A DNA stretch of 20,949 nt from a virus (lineage: Duplodnaviria; Heunggongvirae; Uroviricota; Caudoviricetes). The stretch lies in the IMG/VR virus record IMGVR_UViG_2585427741_000003; one strand, given 5' to 3'. The notes below the pieces were generated by a model that was not told the origin of the DNA, did not search any database, and was given only the letters and a program-made list of their open reading frames with translations. Below are positions 344-20,759 of this stretch, in pieces. Each line of letters begins with the position of its first letter. Positions within the stretch are counted from its first letter, which is position 1. A program made the position numbers and the translations under genes.

Positions 344-1201
344 ATGAGCACCATCCTGAAATGGGCAGGTAATAAAACTGCCATTATGTCCGAACTGAAA
401 AAACATCTTCCTGCTGGCCCGCGACTGGTTGAACCTTTCGCGGGTTCCTGTGCTGTGATGATGGAGACGGATTACCCCAGCTATCTTGTTGCGGATATTA
501 ATCCTGATTTAATCAACCTCTATAAAAAGGTTGCTGCTGATTGTGAATCGTTTATATCTCGCGCCAGAGTTTTTTTTGAGATCGCAAACAGGGAGGTGGC
601 TTATTACAACATAAGGCAGGAGTTTAATTACTCAACTGAAATTACTGATTTCATGAAAGCGGTATATTTCCTGTATCTAAATCGTCACGGTTACCGTGGT
701 TTATGTCGCTATAACAAGAGCGGGCATTTCAACATTCCCTACGGTAATTATAAAAATCCGTATTTCCCTGAAAAAGAAATTCGCGCATTTGCAGAAAAAG
801 CCCAGCGGGCAACGTTTATCTGCGCCAGCTTTGATGAAACGCTGGCGATGTTGAAAGCGGGGGATGTGGTGTATTGCGATCCGCCGTATGACGGTACGTT
901 TTCCGGCTATCACACTGACGGCTTCACTGAAGATGACCAGTATCACCTGGCATCTGTTCTTGAACATCGATCATCAGAAGGTCATCCGGTCATTGTTTCT
1001 AACAGTGACACATCCCTGATCCGTTCGCTGTATCGCAATTTCACTCACCACTACATCAAGGCAAAACGCAGCATCGGCGTGTCAGCTGGCGAGAGTAAAT
1101 CTGCAACAGAAATCATTGCTGTTTCCGGGCCGCGCTGCTGGATGGGATTTGATCCTTCGCGTGGCGTGGATAGTTCTGCTGTGTACGAGGTGCGTGTATG
1201 A
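344..1201 (+). CDS. DNA N6-adenine methyltransferase, Dam (D12 class) family
   Basis: 285 aa; N-terminal SAM-binding KWAGNK...EPFAGS signature and catalytic DPPY motif (CDPPYDGTF). RBS CAGGAGG lies 6-12 nt upstream of the ATG. Stop overlaps the start of the next gene (ATGA at 1198-1201). Confidence 0.9.
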
Positions 1202-3612
1202 GTAATGACGATATGAGCAACTCTAGCGGCTTTAACGAGGCTGCCGCAGCATTTTCATGGAACGGCCCGAAAAAGGCCATTAACCCTTATCTGGAACCGG
1301 AGGAAGTTGCGCCGGAGTCTGCACTTTCAAACATGATCACTCTGTACGCTGCCGATAACGAGCAGGAACAGCAGCGCCGCGAGGCACTGAGTGATCAGGT
1401 CTGGGAACGTTATTTCTTTAATGAATCCCGTGATCCTGTCCAGCGCGAAATGGAGCAGGATAAGCTCATTAGCCGGGCAAAGCTGGCGCATGAGCAGCAG
1501 CGTTTTGACCCGGACATGGTCATTCTGTCGGACGTCAGCGCCCAGCCTACCCACATCAGCAAGCCGCTGATGCAACGTATCGAATACTTCAGCAGCCTGG
1601 GCAGGCCAAAGGCTTATTCCCGCTATTTGCGTGAGACGATTAAGCCATGTCTGGAGCGACTGGAGTATGTACGCGACAGTCAGCTATCCGCTTCTTTCCG
1701 TTTTATGGCAAGCCATCAAGGGCTTGAGGGCCTGCTGATCCTGCCTGAAATGAGTCAGGATCAGGTAAAACGCCTGTCCACCCTGGTAGCAGCGCATATG
1801 AGCATGTGTCTTGAGGCCGCTTGTGGTGATTTGTATGCCACCGATGACGTTAAGCCAGAAGAAATCCGCAAGACATGGGAAAAGGTGGCAGCGGAAACCC
1901 TGCGTCTGGATGTTATCCCGCCTGCGTTTGAGAAACTCCGCCGGAAAAGAAACCGCCGCAAACCTGTGCCCTATGAACTCATACCGGGTTCGCTGGCACG
2001 TATGCTTTGCGCCGACTGGTGGTACCGGAAATTATGGAAGATGCGTTGCGAATGGCGGGAAGAGCAGTTGCGTGCTGCCTGTCTGGTCAGCAAAAAAGCA
2101 TCTCCCTATGTCAGCTATGAAGCAGTGACACATAAACGTGAGCAGCGCCGCAAGTCGCTGGAGTTTTTCCGTTCTCATGAACTGGTGAACGAAGACGGCG
2201 ACACGCTGGATATGGAAGATGTGGTAAACGCCAGCAGCAGCAACCCGGCGCATCGCCGCAATGAGATGATGGCCTGTGTTAAAGGTCTGGAGCTTATCGC
2301 AGAAATGCGTGGTGACTGCGCCGTTTTCTACACTATCACCTGTCCGTCACGTTTCCATTCCACGCTCAACAACGGCAGACCCAACCCGACCTGGACAAAT
2401 GCGACGGTAAGACAAAGCAGCGATTATCTGGTCGGCATGTTTGCTGCATTTCGTAAGGCGATGCACAAAGCCGGGTTGCGCTGGTATGGCGTGCGGGTGG
2501 CTGAGCCGCACCATGACGGTACTGTGCACTGGCATCTCATGTGTTTCATGCGCAAAAAAGACCGCCGCGCTATTACTGCATTGTTGCGTAAGTTTGCCAT
2601 CCGTGAAGACCGCGAGGAACTGGGCAATAACACGGGGCCACGCTTTAAGTCTGAGCTGATAAACCCGCGCAAAGGAACGCCAACAAGCTACATCGCGAAA
2701 TACATCAGTAAGAACATTGACGGACGTGGTCTGGCTGGCGAGATCAGCAAGGAAACGGGTAAATCCCTGCGTGATAACGCCGAATACGTTAATGCCTGGG
2801 CGTCTCTGCATCGTGTTCAGCAGTTCCGCTTCTTTGGTATTCCGGGGCGTCAGGCGTACCGTGAACTTCGCTTGCTGGCTGGTCAGGCGGCAAGGCAACA
2901 GGGTGACAAAAAAGCAGGTGCGCCGGTACTGGATGACCCGCGCCTTGATGCCATCCTGGCTGCCGCTGATGCTGGCTGTTTTGCCACCTACATCATGAAG
3001 CAGGGCGGCGTACTGGTTCCCCGCAAATATCACCTTATCAGAACAGCTTATGAAATTAACGAAGAGCCGACCGCTTATGGCGATCACGGTATTCGTATTT
3101 ATGGCATCTGGTCACCCATTGTACAGGGCAAGATCTGCACTCATGCAATGAAATGGAAAATGGTTCGTAAGGCCGTTGACGTTCAGGAGGCGGCAGCCGA
3201 CCAGGGCGCTTGCGCCCCTTGGACTCGTGGCAATAACTGTCCCCTTGCTGAAAATTTGAACCAACAAGGGAAAGACAAATCAGCTGATGGGGACTCCAGA
3301 ACGGATATTACCCGTATGAATGACAAGGAGTTGCACGATTACCTGCACAGTATGAGCAAAAAAGAGCGCCGGGAACTGGCTGCAAGGTTACGCCAGGTGA
3401 AACCGAAACGGCGTAAAGACTACAAACAGCGAATTACAGACCATCAGCGACTGCAGCTCGTGTATGAGCTGAAGTCCAGAGGATTTGATGGCAGCGAGAA
3501 AGAGGTCGATTTACTCCTTCGCGGAGGCAGTATTCCGTCAGGAGCAGGCCTGCGTATCTTCTATCGGAACCAGCGTTTGCAGGAAGATGATCAGTGGCGG
3601 AACCTGTATTAA
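1198..3612 (+). CDS. A: Rolling-circle replication initiator endonuclease, P2 gpA-like
   Basis: 804 aa; metal-binding [11 protein letters not shown] (HxH-type motif) and catalytic tyrosine region [12 protein letters not shown] typical of the phage GPA replication-initiator family. Size is close to P2 gpA (about 760 aa, recalled). Confidence 0.88.
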
Positions 3613-3704
3613 TTACGCGGGTTAACAATTCGTGCTCTTAATAATACCAGGCATATCAGGCTGATGAACGTAAAAAAACGTTTTACATCAGTAAGATTAT
3701 TATA

Positions 3705-3724
3705 TACTGTAAATATAAACAGTG
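3705..3724 (+). promoter_or_regulatory. Putative LexA (SOS) box
   Basis: TACTGTAAATATAAACAGTG has the form CTGT-N8-ACAG with an AT-rich spacer, close to the consensus TACTGTATATATATACAGTA. It sits about 40 bp upstream of the RBS/ATG at 3766 and overlaps a candidate -10 TATACT. Confidence 0.6.
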
Positions 3725-3765
3725 GTTATACATACAGTATTGCGTGTGGTGTCATAGGAGGAAAG

Positions 3766-3954
3766 ATGCAGGACTATTTTTTGGAGTCTTTGAAGCTCCA
3801 GCGCATTGATTTTTTTCTTAAGCTTGTAGCGGCTAGTGAGTGTAGTGATGAAGAGAAGGGGCTGGCTCTGCAGTGGGTTTCTGAATTGACTGATGAACTC
3901 ATGGCAAAAATCAGAACCCACGAATACAACCGCTCAATGGATGTCATCAGCTGA
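3766..3954 (+). CDS. Hypothetical small protein (62 aa), first gene of the SOS-box unit; possible Tum-like antirepressor (speculative)
   Basis: ATG at 3766 is preceded by a strong RBS AGGAGG (3756-3761). The longer version in the ORF track (start 3664) would read through the LexA box. No family recognised from sequence alone. Confidence 0.45.
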   Translation: MQDYFLESLKLQRIDFFLKLVAASECSDEEKGLALQWVSELTDELMAKIRTHEYNRSMDVIS

Positions 3955-3964
3955 GGTGACTTTT

Positions 3965-4198
3965 ATGCGCATTGAAATAATGATCGATAAAGAGCAGAAG
4001 ATTAGCCAGTCTACCCTGGACGCCCTTGAATCCGAGCTTTACCGCAATCTGCGCCCCCTGTATCCCAAAACGGTAATTCGCATTCGCAAAGGTAGCTCTA
4101 ACGGTGTGGAACTAACCGGACTGCAACTGGACGAAGAAAGAAAACAAGTGATGAAAATTATGCAGAAGGTGTGGGAAGACGACAGCTGGCTGCATTAA
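3965..4198 (+). CDS. DinI-family protein (DNA-damage-inducible protein I-like)
   Basis: 77 aa, MRIEIMIDKEQKISQSTLDALESELYRNL...KQVMKIMQKVWEDDSWLH. The MRIE start, the central LDAL..EL block and the C-terminal acidic W-containing tail match the recalled DinI/MsgA pattern. RBS GAGGTGA lies upstream. Confidence 0.7.
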   Translation: MRIEIMIDKEQKISQSTLDALESELYRNLRPLYPKTVIRIRKGSSNGVELTGLQLDEERKQVMKIMQKVWEDDSWLH

Positions 4199-4333
4199 GA
4201 AACGTTGCTGGCGTCTGAACTTGCTTCTGGCGTCAGCAAGGTTGAACAACGAGCCCTTGCGAGGCGTTAGCTCTGTAGTGCATGTCTATGCCGCATGAGA
4301 TCGCATGATCGTTTGAGGATCGTTTTTGCTAAG

Positions 4334-4357
4334 GCCCGCCAGAACTGGCGGGCTTTT
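4334..4357 (+). terminator. Rho-independent terminator candidate
   Basis: GC-rich inverted repeat GCCCGCCAG / CTGGCGGGC followed by TTTT, downstream of the DinI-like gene. Confidence 0.6.
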
Positions 4358-4402
4358 GCGTAGATCATGCAGGTGCATGAAAACCACTACATAAAGCGGG
4401 CA

Positions 4403-4421
4403 GGCGTGGCGGGGATACGAG
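4403..4421. other. Putative cos (cohesive-end) site of the P2/186 type
   Basis: GGCGTGGCGGGGATACGAG: the first 13 nt match the recalled 186 cohesive end (GGCGTGGCGGGGA...) and resemble P2 cos (GGCGAGGCGGGGA...). Position fits the conserved order: replication region, cos, portal. Confidence 0.4.
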
Positions 4422-4434
4422 CGCGCGCAGCGGG

Positions 4435-4463
4435 TGGAAACTCAGATTTGAATGTTGTATAAA
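4435..4463 (+). promoter_or_regulatory. Candidate sigma70 promoter for the retron operon
   Basis: TGGAAA (4435-4440), 17-bp spacer, TATAAA (4458-4463), about 30 bp upstream of the effector ATG. Sequence match only. Confidence 0.35.
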
Positions 4464-4492
4464 AGATGGGATCATTCTGAGGAAAAGTGGAT

Positions 4493-5398
4493 ATGAAAAA
4501 GAAAACTATTCCGGAGTTGCAGAAGCAAAATCTGGCAAATTTAATTAAAAGTCGGCTTTTTCAACAGAAAAATAAAAATAAAGTTACTGTTTTCCTTTGC
4601 GGGGGCGATTTGAATGATCCGTTTTTTTGTAGAAATAAAGTTAAAAGAGTGTTGGAAACACATCCCAAAATAGAAATATTCTATCCTGAGGAGTTGTTTG
4701 ATGAGCTTTTGTATGGACAAGGTCAGCATAGTCTTTTAAGTTTGGAGAATATTTTAGCTGATTCAGTCGATGTTATTATTATTATTCCTGAAAGCCCAGG
4801 GTCTTTCGCTGAATTGGGCGCATTTTCAAATAATGAAAAACTGTGCAAAAAAATGATATGTCTTCAGGATGACAAATTCAAACTTAAAAAAAGCTTTCTT
4901 AATTATGGGCCTATAAAACTGCTTCGGCGTGCTAATAGCGGTGCAGTATTGCGAGGAGATTTGTCGACTCTTGAAAGCTTGAGTACAGGTAAAGCTTTTT
5001 ATAATAGAATTATAAAAAGTATTAATGACATCAAAAAAAATAACCCAGTTAATCACTCAATAGATAATATTCTTCACGCTCGGCGTTTTATACTGCCATG
5101 TATATATTTGATGGATGGTATAGATAATATACTTCTATATGAGCTATTACATTTGGTGACTAAGAAAGATGCTATTCTTTGTGAAATTATCGTTAAGTCT
5201 GTTATTTCAAGCTTGATTAAAGAGTCAATAATTAGGCGTTCAGTTCAAGGATACCATATTACAGAAATTGGTATGCAATACGTTCTTGAGCATTTTGATC
5301 GAAAGGCTTTGGACAATCTACGACTGGATATGATGAACTTCGAAAATCGTGGTAAAACAATACTCCACTATGATAGGATGCGTTTTGCGCACCCTTAG
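4493..5398 (+). CDS. Retron effector candidate: nucleoside 2-deoxyribosyltransferase-like (NDT-like) N-terminal domain plus C-terminal helical, possibly DNA-binding, domain
   Basis: 301 aa from ATG 4493 (RBS GAGGAAA upstream; the ORF track begins two codons earlier at GTG 4487). Rossmann-like start KVTVFLCGG and DVIIIIPESPGSFAELGAF block with a candidate catalytic Glu in SFAELG. Low-GC codon usage unlike the flanking phage genes. Stop codon TAG (5396-5398) lies inside retron repeat a1. Confidence 0.65.
   Translation: MKKKTIPELQKQNLANLIKSRLFQQKNKNKVTVFLCGGDLNDPFFCRNKVKRVLETHPKIEIFYPEELFDELLYGQGQHSLLSLENILADSVDVIIIIPESPGSFAELGAFSNNEKLCKKMICLQDDKFKLKKSFLNYGPIKLLRRANSGAVLRGDLSTLESLSTGKAFYNRIIKSINDIKKNNPVNHSIDNILHARRFILPCIYLMDGIDNILLYELLHLVTKKDAILCEIIVKSVISSLIKESIIRRSVQGYHITEIGMQYVLEHFDRKALDNLRLDMMNFENRGKTILHYDRMRFAHP
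5387..5397 (+). repeat. Retron inverted repeat a1
   Basis: GCGCACCCTTA; exact reverse complement of 5535-5545. Confidence 0.8.
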
Positions 5399-5534
5399 CG
5401 AGTGGCTTCTCCGGAAGTTCACTGGACAGTGTTTCGCTGTCCTACATACAATCTGAAGTTTTACCAGTTCCCTCATTGAAAGGAGAACATCTCCCGATGT
5501 TCTCCTTTCACTTCGGAATCTGATTTTTATGACG

Positions 5535-5545
5535 TAAGGGTGCGC
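5535..5545 (+). repeat. Retron inverted repeat a2
   Basis: TAAGGGTGCGC; exact reverse complement of 5387-5397; ends 2 nt before the RT start codon. Confidence 0.8.
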
Positions 5546-5547
5546 TC

Positions 5548-6522
5548 ATGACTTCCGCAACACCATCTCAGGTTTTTCGCTTACGCAATCTTGGATTGCC
5601 TGTTATGTCCTCTTTAGAGGATATGTCTAGAGAAATGCGTTTATCAGTAGACATACTCCGGTTGTACATTTATCGTGCTGACAAATACTATAAGGTTTAT
5701 TCGTTGCCAAAAAGAGATGGCAAGAGATCCCGCATCATTTCACAGCCATCACGTGAGCTGAAGGCATTGCAAGCTTGGGTGTTAAGAAACATCCTTGATA
5801 AGTTACATTCATCCCCATTTTCCAAAGGCTTTGAAAAAGGGCAATCAATATTAAATAATGCCAGCCCACATGTAGGAGCTAACTATGTATTAAATATTGA
5901 TTTAGAAGATTGTTTTAATACTATTCTGATAGAGAAAATCTATACTGTTTTTCATTCTCTGGGGTATAACTCTACTATTTCTAATGCTTTAGCAAGATTG
6001 TGTTCATTTAATGGTTCGCTACCTCAAGGTGCACCATCTTCTCCAAAGATTGCGAATCTTGTTTTAACTAAATTAGATTATAGAATACATGGATATGCAG
6101 GTAGTAAGGGGATCGTATTTACTCGATATGCCGATGATTTGACTTTATCTGCTCAATCTTTAAAAAAAATACTTAAAGCTAAGTCATTTGTATGCTCTAT
6201 AATACCAAGTGAATCTTTGAAGGTTAATTATAATAAAGTTGCGATTCATGGCCCCAAAGCAAGGAAGGAGGTTACTGGGCTCGTTTTATCTATTGATAAT
6301 GTTGGAGTTGGCAGAATACGTTATCGCGAAATTAGAAGTAAGATCCATTATCTGGCGGTAAAAAGAAATTCTGATTTCGAACATGTTAAAGGACTTATTG
6401 CGTTTGTTAAAAGTGTAGACAAGAAAAACTATAGAAAATTGATGACTTTCTCAAATAAAATGTCTGAAGCATATGGGGTTGATCTAAGTGTTCTTTTTCC
6501 TAAAAACAAAAAGGCCATTTAA
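5548..6522 (+). CDS. ret: Retron-type reverse transcriptase
   Basis: 324 aa; RT motifs: PKRDGKRSRIISQP (motif 1/2), NASPH (retron NAxxH), LPQGAPSSPKIANL (motif 4), RYADDL (catalytic YADD), and the retron-specific VTG (EVTGLVL). Size is typical of Ec86/Ec73-class RTs. Low-GC composition. Confidence 0.92.
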   Translation: MTSATPSQVFRLRNLGLPVMSSLEDMSREMRLSVDILRLYIYRADKYYKVYSLPKRDGKRSRIISQPSRELKALQAWVLRNILDKLHSSPFSKGFEKGQSILNNASPHVGANYVLNIDLEDCFNTILIEKIYTVFHSLGYNSTISNALARLCSFNGSLPQGAPSSPKIANLVLTKLDYRIHGYAGSKGIVFTRYADDLTLSAQSLKKILKAKSFVCSIIPSESLKVNYNKVAIHGPKARKEVTGLVLSIDNVGVGRIRYREIRSKIHYLAVKRNSDFEHVKGLIAFVKSVDKKNYRKLMTFSNKMSEAYGVDLSVLFPKNKKAI

Positions 6523-6532
6523 TGGCCTTTTT
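6508..6532. terminator. Palindromic A/T-flanked hairpin between convergent RT and portal genes (possible bidirectional terminator)
   Basis: AAAAAGGCCATTTAATGGCCTTTTT is a perfect 25-nt palindrome. It overlaps the RT stop codon and ends 5 nt before the portal gene stop (6538-6540, minus strand). Short GC stem, so moderate confidence. Confidence 0.45.
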
Positions 6533-6537
6533 GTTTA

Positions 6538-7569
6538 TTAGGTAATTGAATAACTCACGAAATTAATAACTTCTTCATTTATCCATTCGTTCAGCTCTTC
6601 TAGTCTTTTTTGTAAAGGGATGAGTTCATTCCTCACAAAAACATTAGCAGCTTTCTCTACATCCCCAAACCCTCCAACATTATTAGGCATAATCCCCATC
6701 ATTTGCGGTGGCACACGATGCGCCGCCATCATGTCATCCCGGCTCACGTTCTTGATGTTCAGAAACTCATCCTTCGCCGCGACCTCTGACAACGGGATAA
6801 TCTGAAGCCCGTCCTTTTTGCCGTTAGGCGAGTACATAAACAGGTTGCGGAAGTTACCCGGTCCTTTGGCGCTTTTCATCGCGTTGCGGAGGTTGTTCAC
6901 GTCCTCCTGGTTCTGCGCGGCATCGGTCATGTACATGATGAAGCCAGCATGACTGCCGTTTATGTAATACTTTCGACGGAACAGCGTGGCGGACTCATTG
7001 AGCAGGGCGGACGGAATAGCAGAAAGATAGCCGGGCAGGCCATAGATCTCCTGATTTATGTCCGGTTCCATCAGATGGAAAATGCTGCCTTTCGTGAACT
7101 GATACGGTTGCGTGGTCATGCCGTATTGCACAAACCAGTAGGTATCTAGGTCTAATCCACGTCGGGTGTATTTTGCCAGCGCAGGCTCAAGAGCGATAAC
7201 TTCACCGAATCGGTTCGTGCGTTTCTCCAGGTAGGCGTTACCAAATACCAGATAGTCCTGCACAAAACGTGAAAAAGCCTGCTGGCTGAGCAGCGGGTGA
7301 GGGATGTAGGTACTGGTCAGAATGTTGCACTTTACTGCAATCGGGGAACTGTGATGCACAGCAGCGCGGAAGGTGCGCGCCAGTCCGTCAAAGCTGACGG
7401 GAGGCTCATACCAGCGATCTGTCTGTACGCATTCCACATAGTCCAGCAGTTCGCGGCGGTCAAGTACGGGAATGGGATCACCGAAGCTGAATGCTTCGGC
7501 TGTAGTCTGGCTTTTGAGCTGGCTCTGTTTCGTCGCCGCAGCGCGGTTCTTCTTACTCTTTCCCATCAA
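6538..7569 (-). CDS. Q: Portal protein, P2 gpQ-like
   Basis: 343 aa (P2 Q about 344 aa, recalled); position and orientation (leftward, next to P) match the P2/186 map. Start overlaps the stop of P (ATGA). Confidence 0.85.
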   Translation of the reverse strand: MMGKSKKNRAAATKQSQLKSQTTAEAFSFGDPIPVLDRRELLDYVECVQTDRWYEPPVSFDGLARTFRAAVHHSSPIAVKCNILTSTYIPHPLLSQQAFSRFVQDYLVFGNAYLEKRTNRFGEVIALEPALAKYTRRGLDLDTYWFVQYGMTTQPYQFTKGSIFHLMEPDINQEIYGLPGYLSAIPSALLNESATLFRRKYYINGSHAGFIMYMTDAAQNQEDVNNLRNAMKSAKGPGNFRNLFMYSPNGKKDGLQIIPLSEVAAKDEFLNIKNVSRDDMMAAHRVPPQMMGIMPNNVGGFGDVEKAANVFVRNELIPLQKRLEELNEWINEEVINFVSYSIT

Positions 7570-17176: not shown

Positions 17177-17774
17177 TCTGCTGCCACCGGGTTCAACTTC
17201 ACTGGAGCGCCGACTGGCGCAAACCTGTAGCGGGATTTCTGATCTGCAGGTGCCGCTGCGTGACTTGTGGAATCCGGCGACTTGTCCGGTCAGTTTCCTG
17301 CCTTATCTCGCCTGGGCGTTCTCTGTGGATCGCTGGGACGAGAGCTGGACAGAAAGCGTCAAACGCCAGGTGGTGAAGGATGCTTTTTATATTCATCAGC
17401 ACAAAGGAACCACCAGTGCCGTGCGGCGGGTGGTGGAGCCGTTCGGCTTCCTGATCCGCATTATTGAGTGGTGGCAGACCGGAGAAACACCGGGCACGTT
17501 TCGCCTGGATATCGGCGTGCAGGATCAGGGCATCACTGAAGATACCTATCTGGAACTTGAGCGGCTGATAAGCGATGCCAAACCATGTAGCCGTCACATG
17601 ATCGGCATGTCCATCAATCTGCAGACCAGCGGTCCGCATTGGGTGGGGGCCGCCAGCTATCTTGGCGAAGAAATCACGATCTATCCGTATATCAACGAAA
17701 CAATTATTTCCGGCGGCACCGCGCATGAAGGCGGGGCGGTCCATGTTATTGACACAATGAGAGTGAATCCATGA
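17169..17774 (+). CDS. I: Baseplate / tail-fibre attachment protein, P2 gpI-like
   Basis: 201 aa; LWNP.TCP, LAWAFSVDRWDE, HKGT and GTFRLDIGV blocks match recalled P2 gpI. Confidence 0.9.
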   Translation: MNSLLPPGSTSLERRLAQTCSGISDLQVPLRDLWNPATCPVSFLPYLAWAFSVDRWDESWTESVKRQVVKDAFYIHQHKGTTSAVRRVVEPFGFLIRIIEWWQTGETPGTFRLDIGVQDQGITEDTYLELERLISDAKPCSRHMIGMSINLQTSGPHWVGAASYLGEEITIYPYINETIISGGTAHEGGAVHVIDTMRVNP

Positions 17775-19168
17775 GCACAAAATTTTATACCCTGCTGACG
17801 GATATTGGCGCGGCGAAACTTGCCAGCGCCGCCGCGCTCGGTGTGCCTTTAAAAATTACCCATATGGCGGTAGGCGATGGCGGCGGAACATTGCCAACGC
17901 CGGACGCAAAGCAGACAGCATTAGTAAATGAGAAACGCCGGGCTGCGCTGAATATGCTGTACATCGACCCGCAGAACAGCAGCCAGATTATTGCCGAACA
18001 GGTGATCCCTGAAAACGAGGGCGGTTGGTGGATACGTGAAGTGGGCTTGTTTGATGAGTCCGGGGCATTGATTGCCGTGGGCAACTGCCCGGAAAGCTAT
18101 AAGCCGCAACTGGCTGAAGGTAGCGGGCGCACTCAGACCGTGCGCATGGTGCTGATTACCAGCAGCACGGACAATATCACCCTGAAAATCGACCCTGCCG
18201 TCGTGCTGGCAACCCGCAAGTATGTGGATGACAAGGTACTGGAGCTGAAGGTGTTCGTGGATGATAAGATGGCAAAACATCTTGCCGCACCGGACCCGCA
18301 TTCACAGTATGCACCCAAAGAAAGCCCGACATTGACCGGAACACCCAAAGCGCCAACGCCAGCGGAGGGGAATAACACCACGCAGATTGCGACCACCGCG
18401 TTTGTTCAGGCGGCACTGATGGCCCTTATTAATGGTGCGCCAGCCACACTGGATACGCTGAAAGAAATTGCCGCTGCCATTAATAATGACCCGAAATTCA
18501 GTACCACCATTAACAATGCGCTGGCACTGAAAGCGCCGCTGTTAAGTCCGGCACTCACCGGAACGCCAACAGCCCCCACTGCCGCACAGTCGGTTAACAA
18601 TACACAGATTGCCACCACGGCTTTTGTGAAATCGGCAATTGCGGCAATGGTGGGGTCTGCACCTGCTGCACTGGATACACTGAACGAACTGGCTGCGGCG
18701 CTGGGGAATGACCCGAACTTTGCCACGACAATGCTTAATGCGCTGGCAGGTAAACAACCGCTGGACAATACGCTGACTAATTTGAGTGGAAAGGATGTAG
18801 CTGGTCTTCTCGCATACCTTGGTTTGGGAGAATTATCTCTGGCTGGCACTGCATCGGGTGTCATTGGCCTGAATGGGTATGTAACGATCCCGTTAATTAT
18901 TTCAGGTTCCCGGAGAACACTGATTATTCAGTGGGGGCAGGCGAGATTTGGTGGGTCTGGTGGTGAAGATGCCGGATATCTTAACGATTTTCCTTTTGCC
19001 TTTCCGTCAGCATGTTATGGAATGATAGTTAGTCATGTGGGGCATACACCTTCAGGCGCAGGAATCTTGTCGGCTTCTGCAATTACATCAAATCAGTTCC
19101 GCGGTTTTTCAAGCATAGCGACTGCTGCAAACGCTGTATTAGGTCGTTATATCGCTATAGGGGTGTAA
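17771..19168 (+). CDS. H: Tail fibre protein, P2 gpH-like; C-terminal about 116 codons (18820-19168) lie inside the invertible segment
   Basis: 465 aa; N-terminal 160 aa match recalled P2 gpH (MAVGDGGG, AESYKPALAEGSGR-like blocks). Central tandem fibre repeats (ALTGTPTAPT...NNTQIATTAFV...LDTLNELAAALGNDPNFATT) are shared with P2 H. The C-terminus downstream of the crossover site is unrelated to P2 H. Confidence 0.9.
   Translation: MSTKFYTLLTDIGAAKLASAAALGVPLKITHMAVGDGGGTLPTPDAKQTALVNEKRRAALNMLYIDPQNSSQIIAEQVIPENEGGWWIREVGLFDESGALIAVGNCPESYKPQLAEGSGRTQTVRMVLITSSTDNITLKIDPAVVLATRKYVDDKVLELKVFVDDKMAKHLAAPDPHSQYAPKESPTLTGTPKAPTPAEGNNTTQIATTAFVQAALMALINGAPATLDTLKEIAAAINNDPKFSTTINNALALKAPLLSPALTGTPTAPTAAQSVNNTQIATTAFVKSAIAAMVGSAPAALDTLNELAAALGNDPNFATTMLNALAGKQPLDNTLTNLSGKDVAGLLAYLGLGELSLAGTASGVIGLNGYVTIPLIISGSRRTLIIQWGQARFGGSGGEDAGYLNDFPFAFPSACYGMIVSHVGHTPSGAGILSASAITSNQFRGFSSIATAANAVLGRYIAIGV
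18322..18762 (+). repeat. Two tandem ~220-bp (about 74-codon) imperfect repeats inside the tail-fibre gene
   Basis: Protein-level repeat: TLTGTPKAPTPAEGNNTTQIATTAFVQAALMALINGAPATLDTLKEIAAAINNDPKFSTTINNALALKAP versus ALTGTPTAPTAAQSVNNTQIATTAFVKSAIAAMVGSAPAALDTLNELAAALGNDPNFATTMLNALAGKQP. Confidence 0.8.
18807..18832. promoter_or_regulatory. Left crossover site of the invertible segment (gix/hix/pix-like, 26 bp)
   Basis: TTCTCGCATACCTTGGTTTGGGAGAA: 26 bp with imperfect dyad symmetry around a central TT. The inner 14 bp TTGGTTTGGGAGAA are exactly repeated in inverted orientation at 20679-20692. Confidence 0.7.
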
Positions 19169-19169
19169 T

Positions 19170-19607
19170 ATGTTTTATAGTCCATCTTTAAACATTTTTG
19201 TGAATCCTGCACTTAAGGATGATTACATTAATGCAAATTCATGGCCAGATGATGCTCTGGCTGTCAGTGATGATGTTTATAATGAATTTGCAATCAATAC
19301 GCCTCCAGATGACAAAATTCGTGTTGCAGGAAAAAATGGATTACCCACATGGGCACTAATACCTCCACCATCACATGAAGAACTTATTCAACAGCCAGAA
19401 TCAGAAAGGCAATTATTGCTTAATCAGGCCAACGAATACATGAACAGTAAGCAATGGCCCGGTAAAGCCGCTATTGGTCGTCTGAAAGGTGATGAACTGG
19501 CGCAATATAATTTGTGGCTGGATTATCTGGACGCACTGGAGCTGATCGATACTTCCGGTGCGCCAGATATTGAATGGCCTACGCCTCCGGCAGTTCAGGC
19601 CAGATGA
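19170..19607 (+). CDS. Tail fibre assembly protein (Tfa/gpG-like), paired with the currently expressed fibre C-terminus
   Basis: 145 aa; starts 1 nt after the H stop; conserved C-terminal Tfa signature (LW.DY.DA.E.ID...APDIEWP). Confidence 0.8.
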   Translation: MFYSPSLNIFVNPALKDDYINANSWPDDALAVSDDVYNEFAINTPPDDKIRVAGKNGLPTWALIPPPSHEELIQQPESERQLLLNQANEYMNSKQWPGKAAIGRLKGDELAQYNLWLDYLDALELIDTSGAPDIEWPTPPAVQAR

Positions 19608-20181
19608 CATCCGGCGCTGTGCTGGTATCTGTTGCCGTCACCGCGTCAATGTAATCCAGCACAGCGTTAAGGCGGGTTGTTTCTGCCTGCGTCAGCTTCC
19701 GTCCGGCCTGTAATTTCAGTTGAATCAGACTGATGGAGGCCATTGCAGTATCAATCAGCGACTGGCGCTGTGCTTCTGCTGCATCTACTGCTGCGCCGTG
19801 CTGTGCCTCGGTATCTGTCACCCATTTCTCACCATTCCATTCATCGTATGGCGTTAACGGGGCGATAGTGGTTGTATTTTCAGGATAATCACCCGGAGCT
19901 GTGATTTCTTTCGATTCTCCTGTTTCGGTGCTATAGACGATTTCACCGCGATGATCTGGCACATATTCCCATGAATTTAAATCTACAGAGCGACAGATTG
20001 CATAACCAGCTTTATGTGTACCTGGTGCATCCAAACAAGAACATGCCGGAATACCGACGCCGACAGCGAGATATTCAGTTGATGTAGAAATATATTCACG
20101 CGTTTCACCATCATAGTTATAAACAGTAATATTTCCTGCCTGGGTGGCGATAAATTCGTTATTTAATACGGCGTAATCCAT
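19579..20181 (-). CDS. Alternative tail fibre assembly protein (Tfa-like), inverted orientation
   Basis: 200 aa on the minus strand; C-terminal LDYIDAVTATDTSTAPDVIWPELP is the same Tfa signature; convergent with and overlapping the plus-strand tfa by 29 bp; start overlaps the stop of the alternative fibre segment (TAATGG). Confidence 0.8.
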   Translation of the reverse strand: MDYAVLNNEFIATQAGNITVYNYDGETREYISTSTEYLAVGVGIPACSCLDAPGTHKAGYAICRSVDLNSWEYVPDHRGEIVYSTETGESKEITAPGDYPENTTTIAPLTPYDEWNGEKWVTDTEAQHGAAVDAAEAQRQSLIDTAMASISLIQLKLQAGRKLTQAETTRLNAVLDYIDAVTATDTSTAPDVIWPELPEA

Positions 20182-20691
20182 TATGCAGCCCTCACGATAT
20201 ACGCAAATGCCAGGTTCCGTGGTCTGGTTTCTTTAATTAAAGAGGAGGCATCAGGTGAACTCACTGATTCAGCACCATTTCTTCCACCAGTGGTATAAGT
20301 AAAAACTCTTTCACTGTTAGACCAGTAATCCACACCAACTGTTTTTGCTGATGAAAAAATGGTTTCATCAGATATAACCTGTTCTATTCCATACGGGATA
20401 TTAGTAACTGACCCCACTTTTGTAGGTATTCCATGATTATGAGAAATTACTGCATGCTCTTGATTCGTTAATAAAGTACGACCGCTATCCACTCCACGCC
20501 CGTCATCCCAGCCACGAATAAACTCACCACGTAAATCAGGCAATTTATTTGTCGGATAAGCCTTTGCCAGTTCCGGGTATTCTTCAGCAGAAAAAGCGGC
20601 ACCGTTGCATTTCAGCCAGCCTGTTGGCGGAGTGGCGGAAGGCCACGGAACAGGCACGCCAACGGGTAATGCCGAACCTTCTCCCAAACCA
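20181..20691 (-). CDS. Alternative tail fibre C-terminal segment (promoterless, expressed only after inversion fuses it to the constant part of H)
   Basis: Minus-strand frame is open from the crossover site (..GLGE GSALPVGVPVPWPSATPPTGWLKCNGAAF...) to the stop at 20181. It shares the in-frame GLGE junction codons with H at 18819-18832. The ORF-track Met at 20732 lies outside the segment and is unlikely to be a real start. Confidence 0.7.
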
Positions 20692-20704
20692 ACGTTTATG
20701 AAAA
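20679..20704. promoter_or_regulatory. Right crossover site of the invertible segment
   Basis: TTCTCCCAAACCAACGTTTATGAAAA with central AA; its reverse complement TTTTCATAAACGTTGGTTTGGGAGAA shares the 14-bp inner half with the left site. Confidence 0.7.
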
Positions 20705-20759
20705 TGCAGAGATAACGGCTAACTGGCATCATCCCCGGTTTTTATTCAGGGGATTGATC

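What the first reader, a model, noticed from the sequence alone, without database searches (positions are those of the whole stretch)
4403..6537. AT-rich island inserted at a variable cargo position of P2-like phages
The interval from the cos-like sequence to the stop of Q is about 2.1 kb, and its codon and base composition (long A/T runs, AT-rich codons) contrasts with the GC-richer flanking phage genes. In P2 and 186 the equivalent cos-to-portal interval is short, and the cos-proximal region is known as a site where P2-like phages carry variable accessory genes such as old and tin. This supports recent horizontal acquisition of the retron as a cassette. A palindromic hairpin (6508-6532) separates it from the convergent portal gene.
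Basis: partly seen in the sequence, partly recalled or inferred. Interest (0 to 1): 0.55.

Follow-up and report, generated by a model that had tools for sequence, protein, structure and literature searches.

The report
Ec86-type retron in P2-phage cargo slot
The AT-rich 2.1 kb between the packaging (cos) site and the portal gene of this P2-like E. coli prophage is a complete anti-phage retron related to the well-studied retron Ec86, in a cargo slot described since 1996, so the finding is correct but ordinary.

Summary
Window 4423-6537 has 35.6% GC against 50-55% in the flanks, and it is the lowest-GC 2.1 kb stretch of the window. The cos 19-mer is at 4403-4421. P2 and 186 have only 167 and 176 nt between cos and the portal stop, against about 2.1 kb here.

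The island is a complete type II-A3 (Ec86/Eco1-family) retron:
- NDT-like effector, 4493-5398
- msr-msd ncRNA, about 5386-5546
- reverse transcriptase, 5548-6522
- its own bidirectional terminator, 6502-6536

About 1,300 of 5,426 complete E. coli genomes carry this prophage backbone. Only 4 carry this retron; about 48 carry an Ec86-like retron at about 68% nucleotide identity. Others carry PIN, TIR, DUF4145, DprA+PRTase, OLD-like, P-loop or peptidase genes, or nothing.

The junctions are sharp: 4428/4429 on the left and about 6560-6580 on the right, inside the last codons of Q. The cassette is 100% identical to that of strain H1, while both flanks are only 90-95% identical. That shows recent exchange by homologous recombination.

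P2 old and tin lie on the other side of cos. AT-richness is family-wide (34-37% GC in every host sampled), so it does not date the acquisition.

The phenomenon is published (Dodd and Egan 1996; Rousset 2022).

The parts
3965..4198 (+). DinI-family gene, the last conserved early-operon gene before the hotspot (flank, not cargo)
   Evidence: Pfam DinI, E 6.6e-23. Annotated as DinI in all related loci.
4271..4278 (.). Junction of the left (tin/old-equivalent) cargo sub-slot. It is empty in this window.
   Evidence: Homology to L001, L002 and L009-L012 runs to about 4270/4271 and resumes at 4277/4278. Those loci carry about 0.7-1.4 kb of extra genes (DUF2971, hypotheticals) in between. L006-L008 diverge earlier, at about 4208 (annotations).
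4278..4428 (+). Conserved cos block lying between the two variable sub-slots. It contains a strong terminator-like hairpin (arms 4328-4342 and 4345-4359).
   Evidence: 90-97% identical across prophages that carry different cargo on both sides. Present in 1,278 of 5,426 genomes. Hairpin -24.8 kcal/mol, z -5.0 (I11).
4403..4421 (+). cos cohesive-end 19-mer, GGCGTGGCGGGGATACGAG
   Evidence: Matches the annotated cos of 186 and P2.
4429..6560 (+). Variable cargo cassette (right sub-slot): the AT-rich island
   Evidence: Left breakpoint at 4427/4428 against every other cargo type. Right breakpoint at 6558-6580. 100% identical to L001 across 4403-6560 while the flanks are 89.6-95% identical. GC 0.356.
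4493..5398 (+). Retron effector: N-terminal nucleoside-deoxyribosyltransferase-like (N-glycosidase) domain with a C-terminal DNA-binding part (301 aa)
   Evidence: PADLOC NDT_II-A, E 2.5e-97. Full-length match to the Ec86 effector 7v9x_C, E 5e-92, 49.7% identity. Ec86 D69 and E106 are conserved as D70 and E107. RefSeq name: 'retron St85 family effector protein'.
5386..5546 (+). Retron ncRNA (msr-msd). a1 is 5387-5397 (GCGCACCCTTA) and a2 is 5535-5545 (TAAGGGTGCGC). The invariant TTAGCGAG (5395-5402) holds the presumed branching G at 5398. There are two msr hairpins. The predicted msd template is 5452-5533, with a long hairpin whose arms are 5465-5491 and 5496-5522.
   Evidence: I24 and I1. MFE -73.7 kcal/mol, z -9.8. 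Aligned with the Ec86 ncRNA and five relatives: 23 of 46 consensus pairs keep pairing through double changes. The template is 82 nt by register with the Ec86 template. The branching G and the template ends are inferred by homology only.
5548..6522 (+). Retron reverse transcriptase (324 aa)
   Evidence: Pfam RVT_1, E 1e-24. PADLOC RT_II-A, E 4.9e-123. Ec86 RT 7v9u_A, E 5.4e-124, 59.5% identity. NASPH, QGAPSSP, YADD and VTG motifs are present.
6502..6536 (.). Cassette-borne bidirectional intrinsic terminator, shared by the retron operon and the convergent P-Q operon
   Evidence: Perfect 16-nt arms (I4). Folds with z -6.0 and -7.7. Each alternative cargo brings a different terminator at this position.
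6538..7569 (-). Portal gene Q. Its last 7-14 codons (6538 to about 6580) belong to the exchangeable segment, and its 3' 120 nt are AT-rich.
   Evidence: Pfam Phage_portal. 94-95% aa identity to Q of other cargo types, but the C-terminal tails differ. GC of 6538-6660 is 0.325, against 0.52-0.53 further in.

Best explanation
The island is a complete, intact type II-A3 retron anti-phage defence system, a paralogue of retron Ec86/Eco1. It is carried as cargo in the cos-to-portal sub-slot of the gpA-gpQ defence hotspot of a P2-like (186/Fels-2-type) E. coli prophage.

Shown here:
- Gene content and order: effector, ncRNA, RT.
- Intact catalytic motifs in both proteins.
- A conserved, covarying ncRNA fold.
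- A terminator that belongs to the cassette.
- Sharp junctions shared with unrelated cargos.
- Presence/absence polymorphism across prophages with the same backbone.
- A 100%-identical cassette embedded in 90-95%-identical flanks.

The last three points mean the cassette moves between related prophages by homologous recombination. The anchors are the conserved cos block on the left and Q (or Q-P) on the right.

Inferred by homology to Ec86:
- The RT reverse-transcribes the msd part of the ncRNA into an msDNA of about 82 nt, branched from the G at 5398.
- RT-msDNA binds the N-glycosidase effector, probably as filaments, and keeps it inactive.
- A phage-made modification or loss of the msDNA releases the effector.
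- The effector hydrolyses NAD(P)+ or adenine nucleotides and aborts the infection.

The trigger is probably not the Dcm methylation that activates Ec86, because the predicted msDNA has no CCWGG site.
For: Identity of the cargo: for the proteins; for the ncRNA.

Same slot as Ec86. In BL21(DE3) the order is DinI, a hypothetical gene, cos, effector, ncRNA, RT, portal. The same arrangement occurs in Pantoea and Enterobacter P2-like prophages. A more distant St85-family retron sits just upstream of the portal gene in Klebsiella phage 4LV2017.

Slot variability. The backbone is in 1,278-1,298 of 5,426 genomes and this retron is in 4. Sampled alternative cargos are PIN, TIR, DUF4145, DprA+PRTase, ATP-dependent nuclease, P-loop NTPase, TIGR02391, an RNA-binding/AlbA protein, and S1 peptidase. 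One locus (H201) is nearly empty.

Recombination signature. No transposon-like repeats at the boundaries.

Literature:
- Retrons Ec86 and Ec67 occupy the site between the phage cohesive end and the terminator of a packaging gene (PMC6868368, citing Dodd and Egan 1996, Virology 219:115).
- The gpA-gpQ region is a defence hotspot that includes retrons (PMC9122126; PMC13586616).
- Type II-A3 is 'Nuc_deoxy+Retron', exemplified by Ec86 (PMC7736814).
- Eco1 mechanism: filaments, NAD(P)+ hydrolysis, Dcm trigger (PMC12673091; 10.1101/2023.08.16.553469).
Against: No experiment here shows msDNA production or defence. The effector is only 49.7% identical to the Ec86 effector, and the msd stem-loop sequence is different, so filament formation, substrate and trigger could all differ. 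No convincing sigma-70 promoter was found upstream of the effector gene. Rfam has no model that recognises this ncRNA.
Confidence: 0.9

Rival explanations
1. The AT-rich block is an old, vertically inherited part of this phage lineage rather than exchangeable cargo. Its composition is simply intrinsic to these genes.
For: All sampled family members have 34-37% GC whatever the host. Relatives occupy the same slot in Pantoea and Enterobacter prophages. The association of this retron family with the slot is therefore old.
Against: Only 4 of about 1,300 E. coli prophages with this backbone carry it, and unrelated genes fill the same interval at the same junctions. The cassette is 100% identical between the window and L001 while both flanks are 90-95% identical.
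Confidence: 0.04
2. The island is a self-mobile element inserted by a transposase, an integrase, or retron-RT-mediated retrotransposition.
For: It encodes a reverse transcriptase and has sharp boundaries.
Against: There is no integrase or transposase ORF. No target-site duplication or terminal inverted repeats lie at 4429 or 6560. The boundaries coincide with those of RT-less cargos. Retron RTs are not known to mobilise their loci (PMC6868368).
Confidence: 0.02
3. The retron is a decaying, non-functional remnant.
For: No function was tested. One relative (strain LR-48) has lost all but the last 211 nt of the RT gene next to an IS1. Truncated RT and effector fragments exist in the protein clusters.
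Against: Both ORFs are full length relative to the solved Ec86 proteins, and the catalytic residues are intact. The ncRNA fold is intact. The exact RT and effector proteins recur on 477 and 498 contigs.
Confidence: 0.05

Closest known systems
Retron Ec86 / Retron-Eco1 (type II-A3) of E. coli B/BL21, within its defective P2-like (186-related) prophage
   Same: Same gene order: NDT-like effector, msr-msd, RT. Same slot between cos and the portal-gene terminator. Same a1/a2 repeat (GCGCACCCTTA / TAAGGGTGCGC) and TTAGCGAG branch motif, with a1 overlapping the effector's last codons (..AHP*). Same catalytic residues. About 35% GC.
   Different: Effector 49.7% and RT 59.5% aa identity, about 68% nt identity. 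msr hairpin 1 and the msd stem-loop have different sequences. Predicted msDNA is about 82 nt against 85-86 nt. There is no CCWGG Dcm site in the msDNA. The terminator and the Q tail differ.
Retron Ec67 / Retron-Eco2 in retronphage phiR67
   Same: Reported to occupy the same cos-to-terminator site of a 186-related prophage (PMC6868368, citing Dodd and Egan 1996).
   Different: It is type I-C: a single RT-Toprim fusion with no NDT effector. Its RT is only distantly related (9i2f_C, E 8.4e-29).
P2 tin/old region, and the gpA-gpQ defence hotspot of P2-like phages (Rousset et al. 2022)
   Same: The same cos-proximal hotspot between replication gene A and portal gene Q, known to carry retrons and many other defence systems (PMC9122126).
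   Different: tin and old lie on the A side of cos. This cargo lies on the Q side, and the A-side sub-slot is empty in this window.
Retron St85 / Retron-Sen2 (type II-A1)
   Same: RefSeq names both proteins 'retron St85 family'. The effector class is the same (NDT-like plus a DNA-binding domain).
   Different: Sen2's gene order is msr-msd, effector, RT, and its RT falls in a different clade (PMC7736814; PMC11701397). Here the best PADLOC profiles and PDB hits are Ec86-type.

Membership tests
Retron (general) | Reverse transcriptase with the retron-type motifs NAxxH, QGxxxSP, YADD and VTG | tested here: met
   NASPH at 104, QGAPSSP at 160, YADD at 194, VTG at 242. RVT_1 E 1e-24. Ec86 RT E 5.4e-124.
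Retron (general) | An adjacent ncRNA with a1/a2 inverted repeats closing msr hairpins and a long msd hairpin, and a conserved G just 3' of a1 | tested here: met
   11-nt perfect a1/a2. Fold z -9.8. 23 of 46 pairs covary across 7 homologues, and TTAGCGAG is invariant.
Retron (general) | Production of branched msDNA | not testable with these tools
   Needs RNA/DNA extraction and gel analysis. The 82-nt length is only predicted from register with Ec86.
Type II-A3 retron (Ec86/Eco1 family) | Effector with an N-terminal NDT-like domain carrying the catalytic acidic residues, plus a C-terminal DNA-binding domain | tested here: met
   End-to-end alignment to the Ec86 effector (1-301 against 1-307, E 5e-92). 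D70 and E107 are conserved. PADLOC NDT_II-A E 2.5e-97.
Type II-A3 retron (Ec86/Eco1 family) | Gene order: effector upstream of ncRNA-RT ('Nuc_deoxy+Retron') | tested here: met
   Effector 4493-5398, ncRNA 5386-5546, RT 5548-6522. Definition from PMC7736814.
Type II-A3 retron (Ec86/Eco1 family) | RT belongs to the Ec86 clade | tested here: met
   The best PDB hit is the Ec86 RT at E 5e-124. The next retron RT (Kva2) scores E 1.9e-34. The best PADLOC profile is RT_II-A. No phylogenetic tree was built.
Type II-A3 retron (Ec86/Eco1 family) | Activation by Dcm methylation of a CCWGG site in the msDNA stem-loop (described for Ec86 itself) | tested here: not met
   No CCWGG in the ncRNA or the predicted msDNA. 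Only 3 of 7 family members have one, so this is a property of Ec86 rather than a defining family feature.
Type II-A3 retron (Ec86/Eco1 family) | Anti-phage abortive infection that requires all three components | not testable with these tools
   Needs plaque assays and mutants.
P2-like phage gpA-gpQ defence hotspot cargo | Located between replication gene A and portal gene Q, adjacent to cos, in a P2-like prophage | tested here: met
   Phage_GPA 1198-3612, cos 4403-4421, Phage_portal 6538-7569, followed by terminase, GPO, capsid, GPL, GpR, baseplate and tail-fibre genes.
P2-like phage gpA-gpQ defence hotspot cargo | The interval is polymorphic among otherwise homologous prophages | tested here: met

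The most novel reading that the evidence does not exclude
This Ec86-family retron may sense a different phage cue from Ec86. Its msDNA stem-loop has a different sequence and lacks the CCWGG site whose Dcm methylation activates Ec86. Only 3 of 7 sampled family members keep such a site. On this reading the exchangeable msd hairpin would be a specificity module that diversifies what type II-A3 retrons detect, while the cos/Q-anchored slot shuffles the variants among P2-like prophages.
Probability: 0.45. Interest if true: 0.35.

Novelty: new member of a known kind. Interest (0 to 1): 0.15.

Why it matters
The main result is negative: the island is an already understood kind of thing. Retrons replacing the DNA between cos and the portal terminator of 186/P2-like prophages were described in 1996. 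The gpA-gpQ region was catalogued as a defence hotspot in 2022. RefSeq already annotates both proteins as retron components.

The residual value is modest:
- It is an uncharacterised Ec86 paralogue (50-60% aa identity) whose msDNA lacks the Ec86 trigger site. That could be useful for comparing trigger specificity, or as a retron-editing scaffold.
- The locus gives a nucleotide-level picture of the hotspot: two sub-slots on either side of a conserved 151-nt cos block, with each right-hand cassette bringing its own terminator and its own portal C-terminal tail.
- The 100% against 90-95% identity contrast directly shows cassette swapping by homologous recombination.

Tried and rejected
- Rfam scan of 3500-7000 at E<=1 found only sub-threshold chance hits on the terminator hairpin and no retron ncRNA family. 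The ncRNA was therefore identified by repeats, folding and alignment to Ec86.
- The local Pfam copy gave no family for the effector, although precomputed hits elsewhere list PF28093 'STM3845' for its homologues. PADLOC and PDB searches settled its identity.
- The consensus terminator scan did not list the 6502-6536 hairpin. Probably the T-run is absorbed into the long stem. It was confirmed by folding instead.
- No convincing promoter was found upstream of the effector, so what drives the operon is unresolved.
- The search for related loci with the single RT protein in species-representative genomes found nothing. Relatives were reached through the search for homologous proteins and the look-up of encoding contigs instead. 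P0002 (75% identity) was not on record.
- Megablast and tblastn against the phage collection found no sequenced phage carrying this or an Ec86-like retron. The only hits were the flanking cos block and distant retron RTs at 29-35% identity.
- A transposon or integrative-element origin was rejected: there are no boundary repeats.
- A search for the RefSeq accessions WP_050488517 and WP_032301626 in the paper library found nothing. I therefore could not show that this allele has been named or tested.
Full report
**1. Observation**

A sliding GC profile shows a trough from about 4400 to about 6650 (0.32-0.43). It is interrupted only by a small rise at 5200-5800, over the ncRNA.
- 4423-6537 has GC 0.356. 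Upstream GC is 0.500 and downstream 0.546.
- The lowest of all 2115-nt windows starts at 4526 (0.351). Windows wholly outside the island average 0.549 (sd 0.031, minimum 0.456).
- Third-position GC is 0.29 and 0.27 for the two island genes, against 0.56-0.71 for the surrounding phage genes.

The cos-like sequence is real. GGCGTGGCGGGGATACGAG at 4403-4421 matches the annotated cohesive ends of 186 and P2.
- In P2 the interval from the end of cos to the Q stop is 167 nt. In 186 it is 176 nt. Each holds only a terminator. Here it is 2116 nt.

The palindrome is confirmed. It has perfect 16-nt arms at 6504-6519 and 6521-6536 and folds far better than shuffles on both strands. U-runs follow on both strands, so it is a bidirectional terminator. 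The RT stop codon lies in its loop, and the Q stop lies 2 nt past the stem.

**2. What the island is**

There are two ORFs on the + strand.

The 324-aa product of 5548-6522 is a reverse transcriptase.
- Pfam RVT_1 and PADLOC RT_II-A, E 4.9e-123.
- It aligns end to end with the solved retron Ec86 RT (E 5.4e-124) at 59.5% identity.
- The NAxxH, QGxxxSP, YADD and VTG motifs are intact.

The 301-aa product of 4493-5398 is the retron effector.
- PADLOC NDT_II-A, E 2.5e-97.
- It aligns over its full length with the Ec86 N-glycosidase/DNA-binding effector (E 5e-92) at 49.7% identity.
- The residues corresponding to Ec86 D69 and E106 are conserved. Their active-site role in Ec86 is described in 10.1101/2023.08.16.553469.

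Between the two genes, and overlapping the last codons of the effector, lies a canonical retron ncRNA.
- a1 GCGCACCCTTA (5387-5397) pairs with a2 TAAGGGTGCGC (5535-5545). These are followed by two short msr hairpins and a long msd hairpin.
- MFE is -73.7 kcal/mol, z -9.8.
- I aligned it with the Ec86 ncRNA from BL21 and with five relatives from Erwinia, Pantoea, Enterobacter, Yersinia and Shewanella. The consensus fold is kept, and 23 of 46 pairs show compensatory changes. The TTAGCGAG motif that holds the presumed branching G is invariant.
- By register with the Ec86 template, the msd template is 5452-5533, which predicts an msDNA of about 82 nt. This is an inference.

The gene order effector, ncRNA, RT is the type II-A3 'Nuc_deoxy+Retron' architecture, whose type member is Ec86 (PMC7736814). 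RefSeq already annotates identical proteins as 'retron St85 family' effector and polymerase. The exact RT and effector proteins occur on 477 and 498 public contigs.

**3. The slot**

The surroundings are a P2-like prophage: Dam methylase, gene A, a small ORF, DinI, then Q, P, O, N, M, L, lysis, tail and baseplate genes.

I compared the window with other E. coli prophages of the same backbone. There are two separate variable intervals on either side of a conserved 151-nt block (4278-4428). That block holds a terminator hairpin and cos.
- The left interval has its junction at 4271/4278. It carries about 0.7-1.4 kb of other genes in strains H1, KFu015, JSMCR1 and others, and it is empty in the window.
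- P2 tin and old lie in this left interval, between orf91 and cosR.
- The right interval starts at 4429, 7 nt past the cohesive end. It ends at about 6558-6580, inside the last 7-14 codons of Q.
- Every cargo type brings its own terminator and its own Q C-terminal tail.

Census of the right interval.
- The cos block or backbone is present in 1,278-1,298 of 5,426 complete E. coli genomes.
- This retron is in 4. A fifth genome (LR-48) retains only the last 211 nt of the RT gene next to an IS1.
- About 48 genomes, largely E. coli B/BL21 derivatives among those listed, carry an Ec86-like retron in the same place at about 68% nt identity.
- A spread sample of the rest shows PIN, TIR, DUF4145, DprA+phosphoribosyltransferase, ATP-dependent nuclease, P-loop NTPase, TIGR02391, an RNA-binding/AlbA+ATPase pair, S1 peptidase plus a hypothetical, and one nearly empty locus (H201).

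**4. How it got there**

There is no integrase or transposase, and no boundary repeats.

The window and strain H1 are 100% identical from 4403 to 6560. They are only 89.6% identical just upstream (4278-4402) and 93-95% identical through Q and into P. Against strain KFu015, identity stays at or near 100% until about 7100 and then drops to 95.5%.

This mosaic is the signature of recent homologous recombination that moved the cassette between diverged prophages. Crossovers fall in or near cos on one side and at variable points in Q on the other.

So 'recent horizontal acquisition as a cassette' is right, but composition is not the evidence for it. Relatives sharing only 52-68% RT identity with the window, from six host backgrounds of 42-56% GC, all have 34-37% GC. 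AT-richness is therefore a stable property of this retron family.

The association with P2-type elements is old. Relatives sit in the same slot in Pantoea and Enterobacter prophages, in a P4-like satellite in Yersinia, and in a decayed P2 remnant in Erwinia. A Shewanella relative is chromosomal, next to recBCD-like helicase genes. A distant St85-family retron lies just upstream of the portal gene in Klebsiella phage 4LV2017.

**5. Mechanism (inferred from Ec86)**

In Eco1, RT-msDNA binds the N-glycosidase effector and assembles filaments that hold it in check. A phage Dcm methylase methylates a CCTGG site in the msDNA stem-loop and activates the system. The effector then hydrolyses NAD(P)+ or depletes adenine derivatives, and the infection aborts (PMC12673091; 10.1101/2023.08.16.553469).

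All the parts needed for this are intact here. The predicted msDNA, however, has no CCWGG site, and no GATC either. Only 3 of 7 family members keep a CCWGG site. I therefore expect the same effector logic with a different trigger.

**6. Comparison with the literature, and verdict**

Retrons Ec86 (with its upstream ORF) and Ec67 were reported to occupy exactly this site, between the cohesive end and the terminator of a packaging gene of a 186-related prophage (PMC6868368, citing Dodd and Egan 1996). The gpA-gpQ region was catalogued as a defence hotspot with 1,650 gene arrangements, retrons among them (PMC9122126). That result was extended in PMC13586616.

The finding is correct and well observed, but it rediscovers known biology. 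The retron itself is an uncharacterised member of a well-characterised family. I could not find this allele named or tested in the searchable literature.

Noticed in passing
window 4271-4278: The second cargo sub-slot of the hotspot, equivalent to the P2 tin/old position between the DinI terminator and the cos block, is empty here. Close relatives carry about 0.7-1.4 kb there (DUF2971 or hypothetical genes).
   Followed up: partly
L008 (E. coli LR-48) 5248-6194, corresponding to window 6312-6522: An IS1 sits where the retron should be. Only the last 211 nt of the RT gene remain, 100% identical to the window. This is an IS-associated deletion of this same cassette.
   Followed up: partly
window 5386-5402: The a1 repeat of the ncRNA overlaps the last codons of the effector gene (..AHP*). 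The presumed branching G (5398) is the last base of its TAG stop codon. The same overlap occurs in Ec86.
   Followed up: partly
window 5452-5533 (predicted msd template): The predicted 82-nt msDNA has no CCWGG (Dcm) site and no GATC (Dam) site. Ec86 needs its CCTGG site for activation, and this prophage itself encodes a Dam-type methylase (344-1201).
   Followed up: partly
window 6538-6660: The 3' 120 nt of portal gene Q are AT-rich (GC 0.325), and the Q C-terminal tail differs with each cargo type. The portal C-terminus therefore seems to tolerate being rewritten with every cassette swap.
   Followed up: partly
window 17771-20732: The tail-fibre region looks like an invertible host-range segment. 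Fibre gene H and a tail-fibre assembly gene lie on the + strand. A second assembly gene (19579-20181) and a Collar-domain fibre C-terminal ORF (20181-20732) lie on the - strand. GC dips to 0.40-0.45. Any invertase would lie beyond the window.
   Followed up: no
L017 (Yersinia) 3932-5960; L018 (Shewanella) 3945-5969: Ec86-family retrons also occur in a P4-like satellite (primase and Ogr/Delta neighbours) and, in Shewanella, directly beside RecD/RecB-like helicase-nuclease genes.
   Followed up: no
window 3600-4000: A smaller low-GC dip (0.39-0.44) covers the intergenic region after gene A and a conserved 62-aa ORF (3766-3954) of unknown function that precedes DinI in all related prophages.
   Followed up: no
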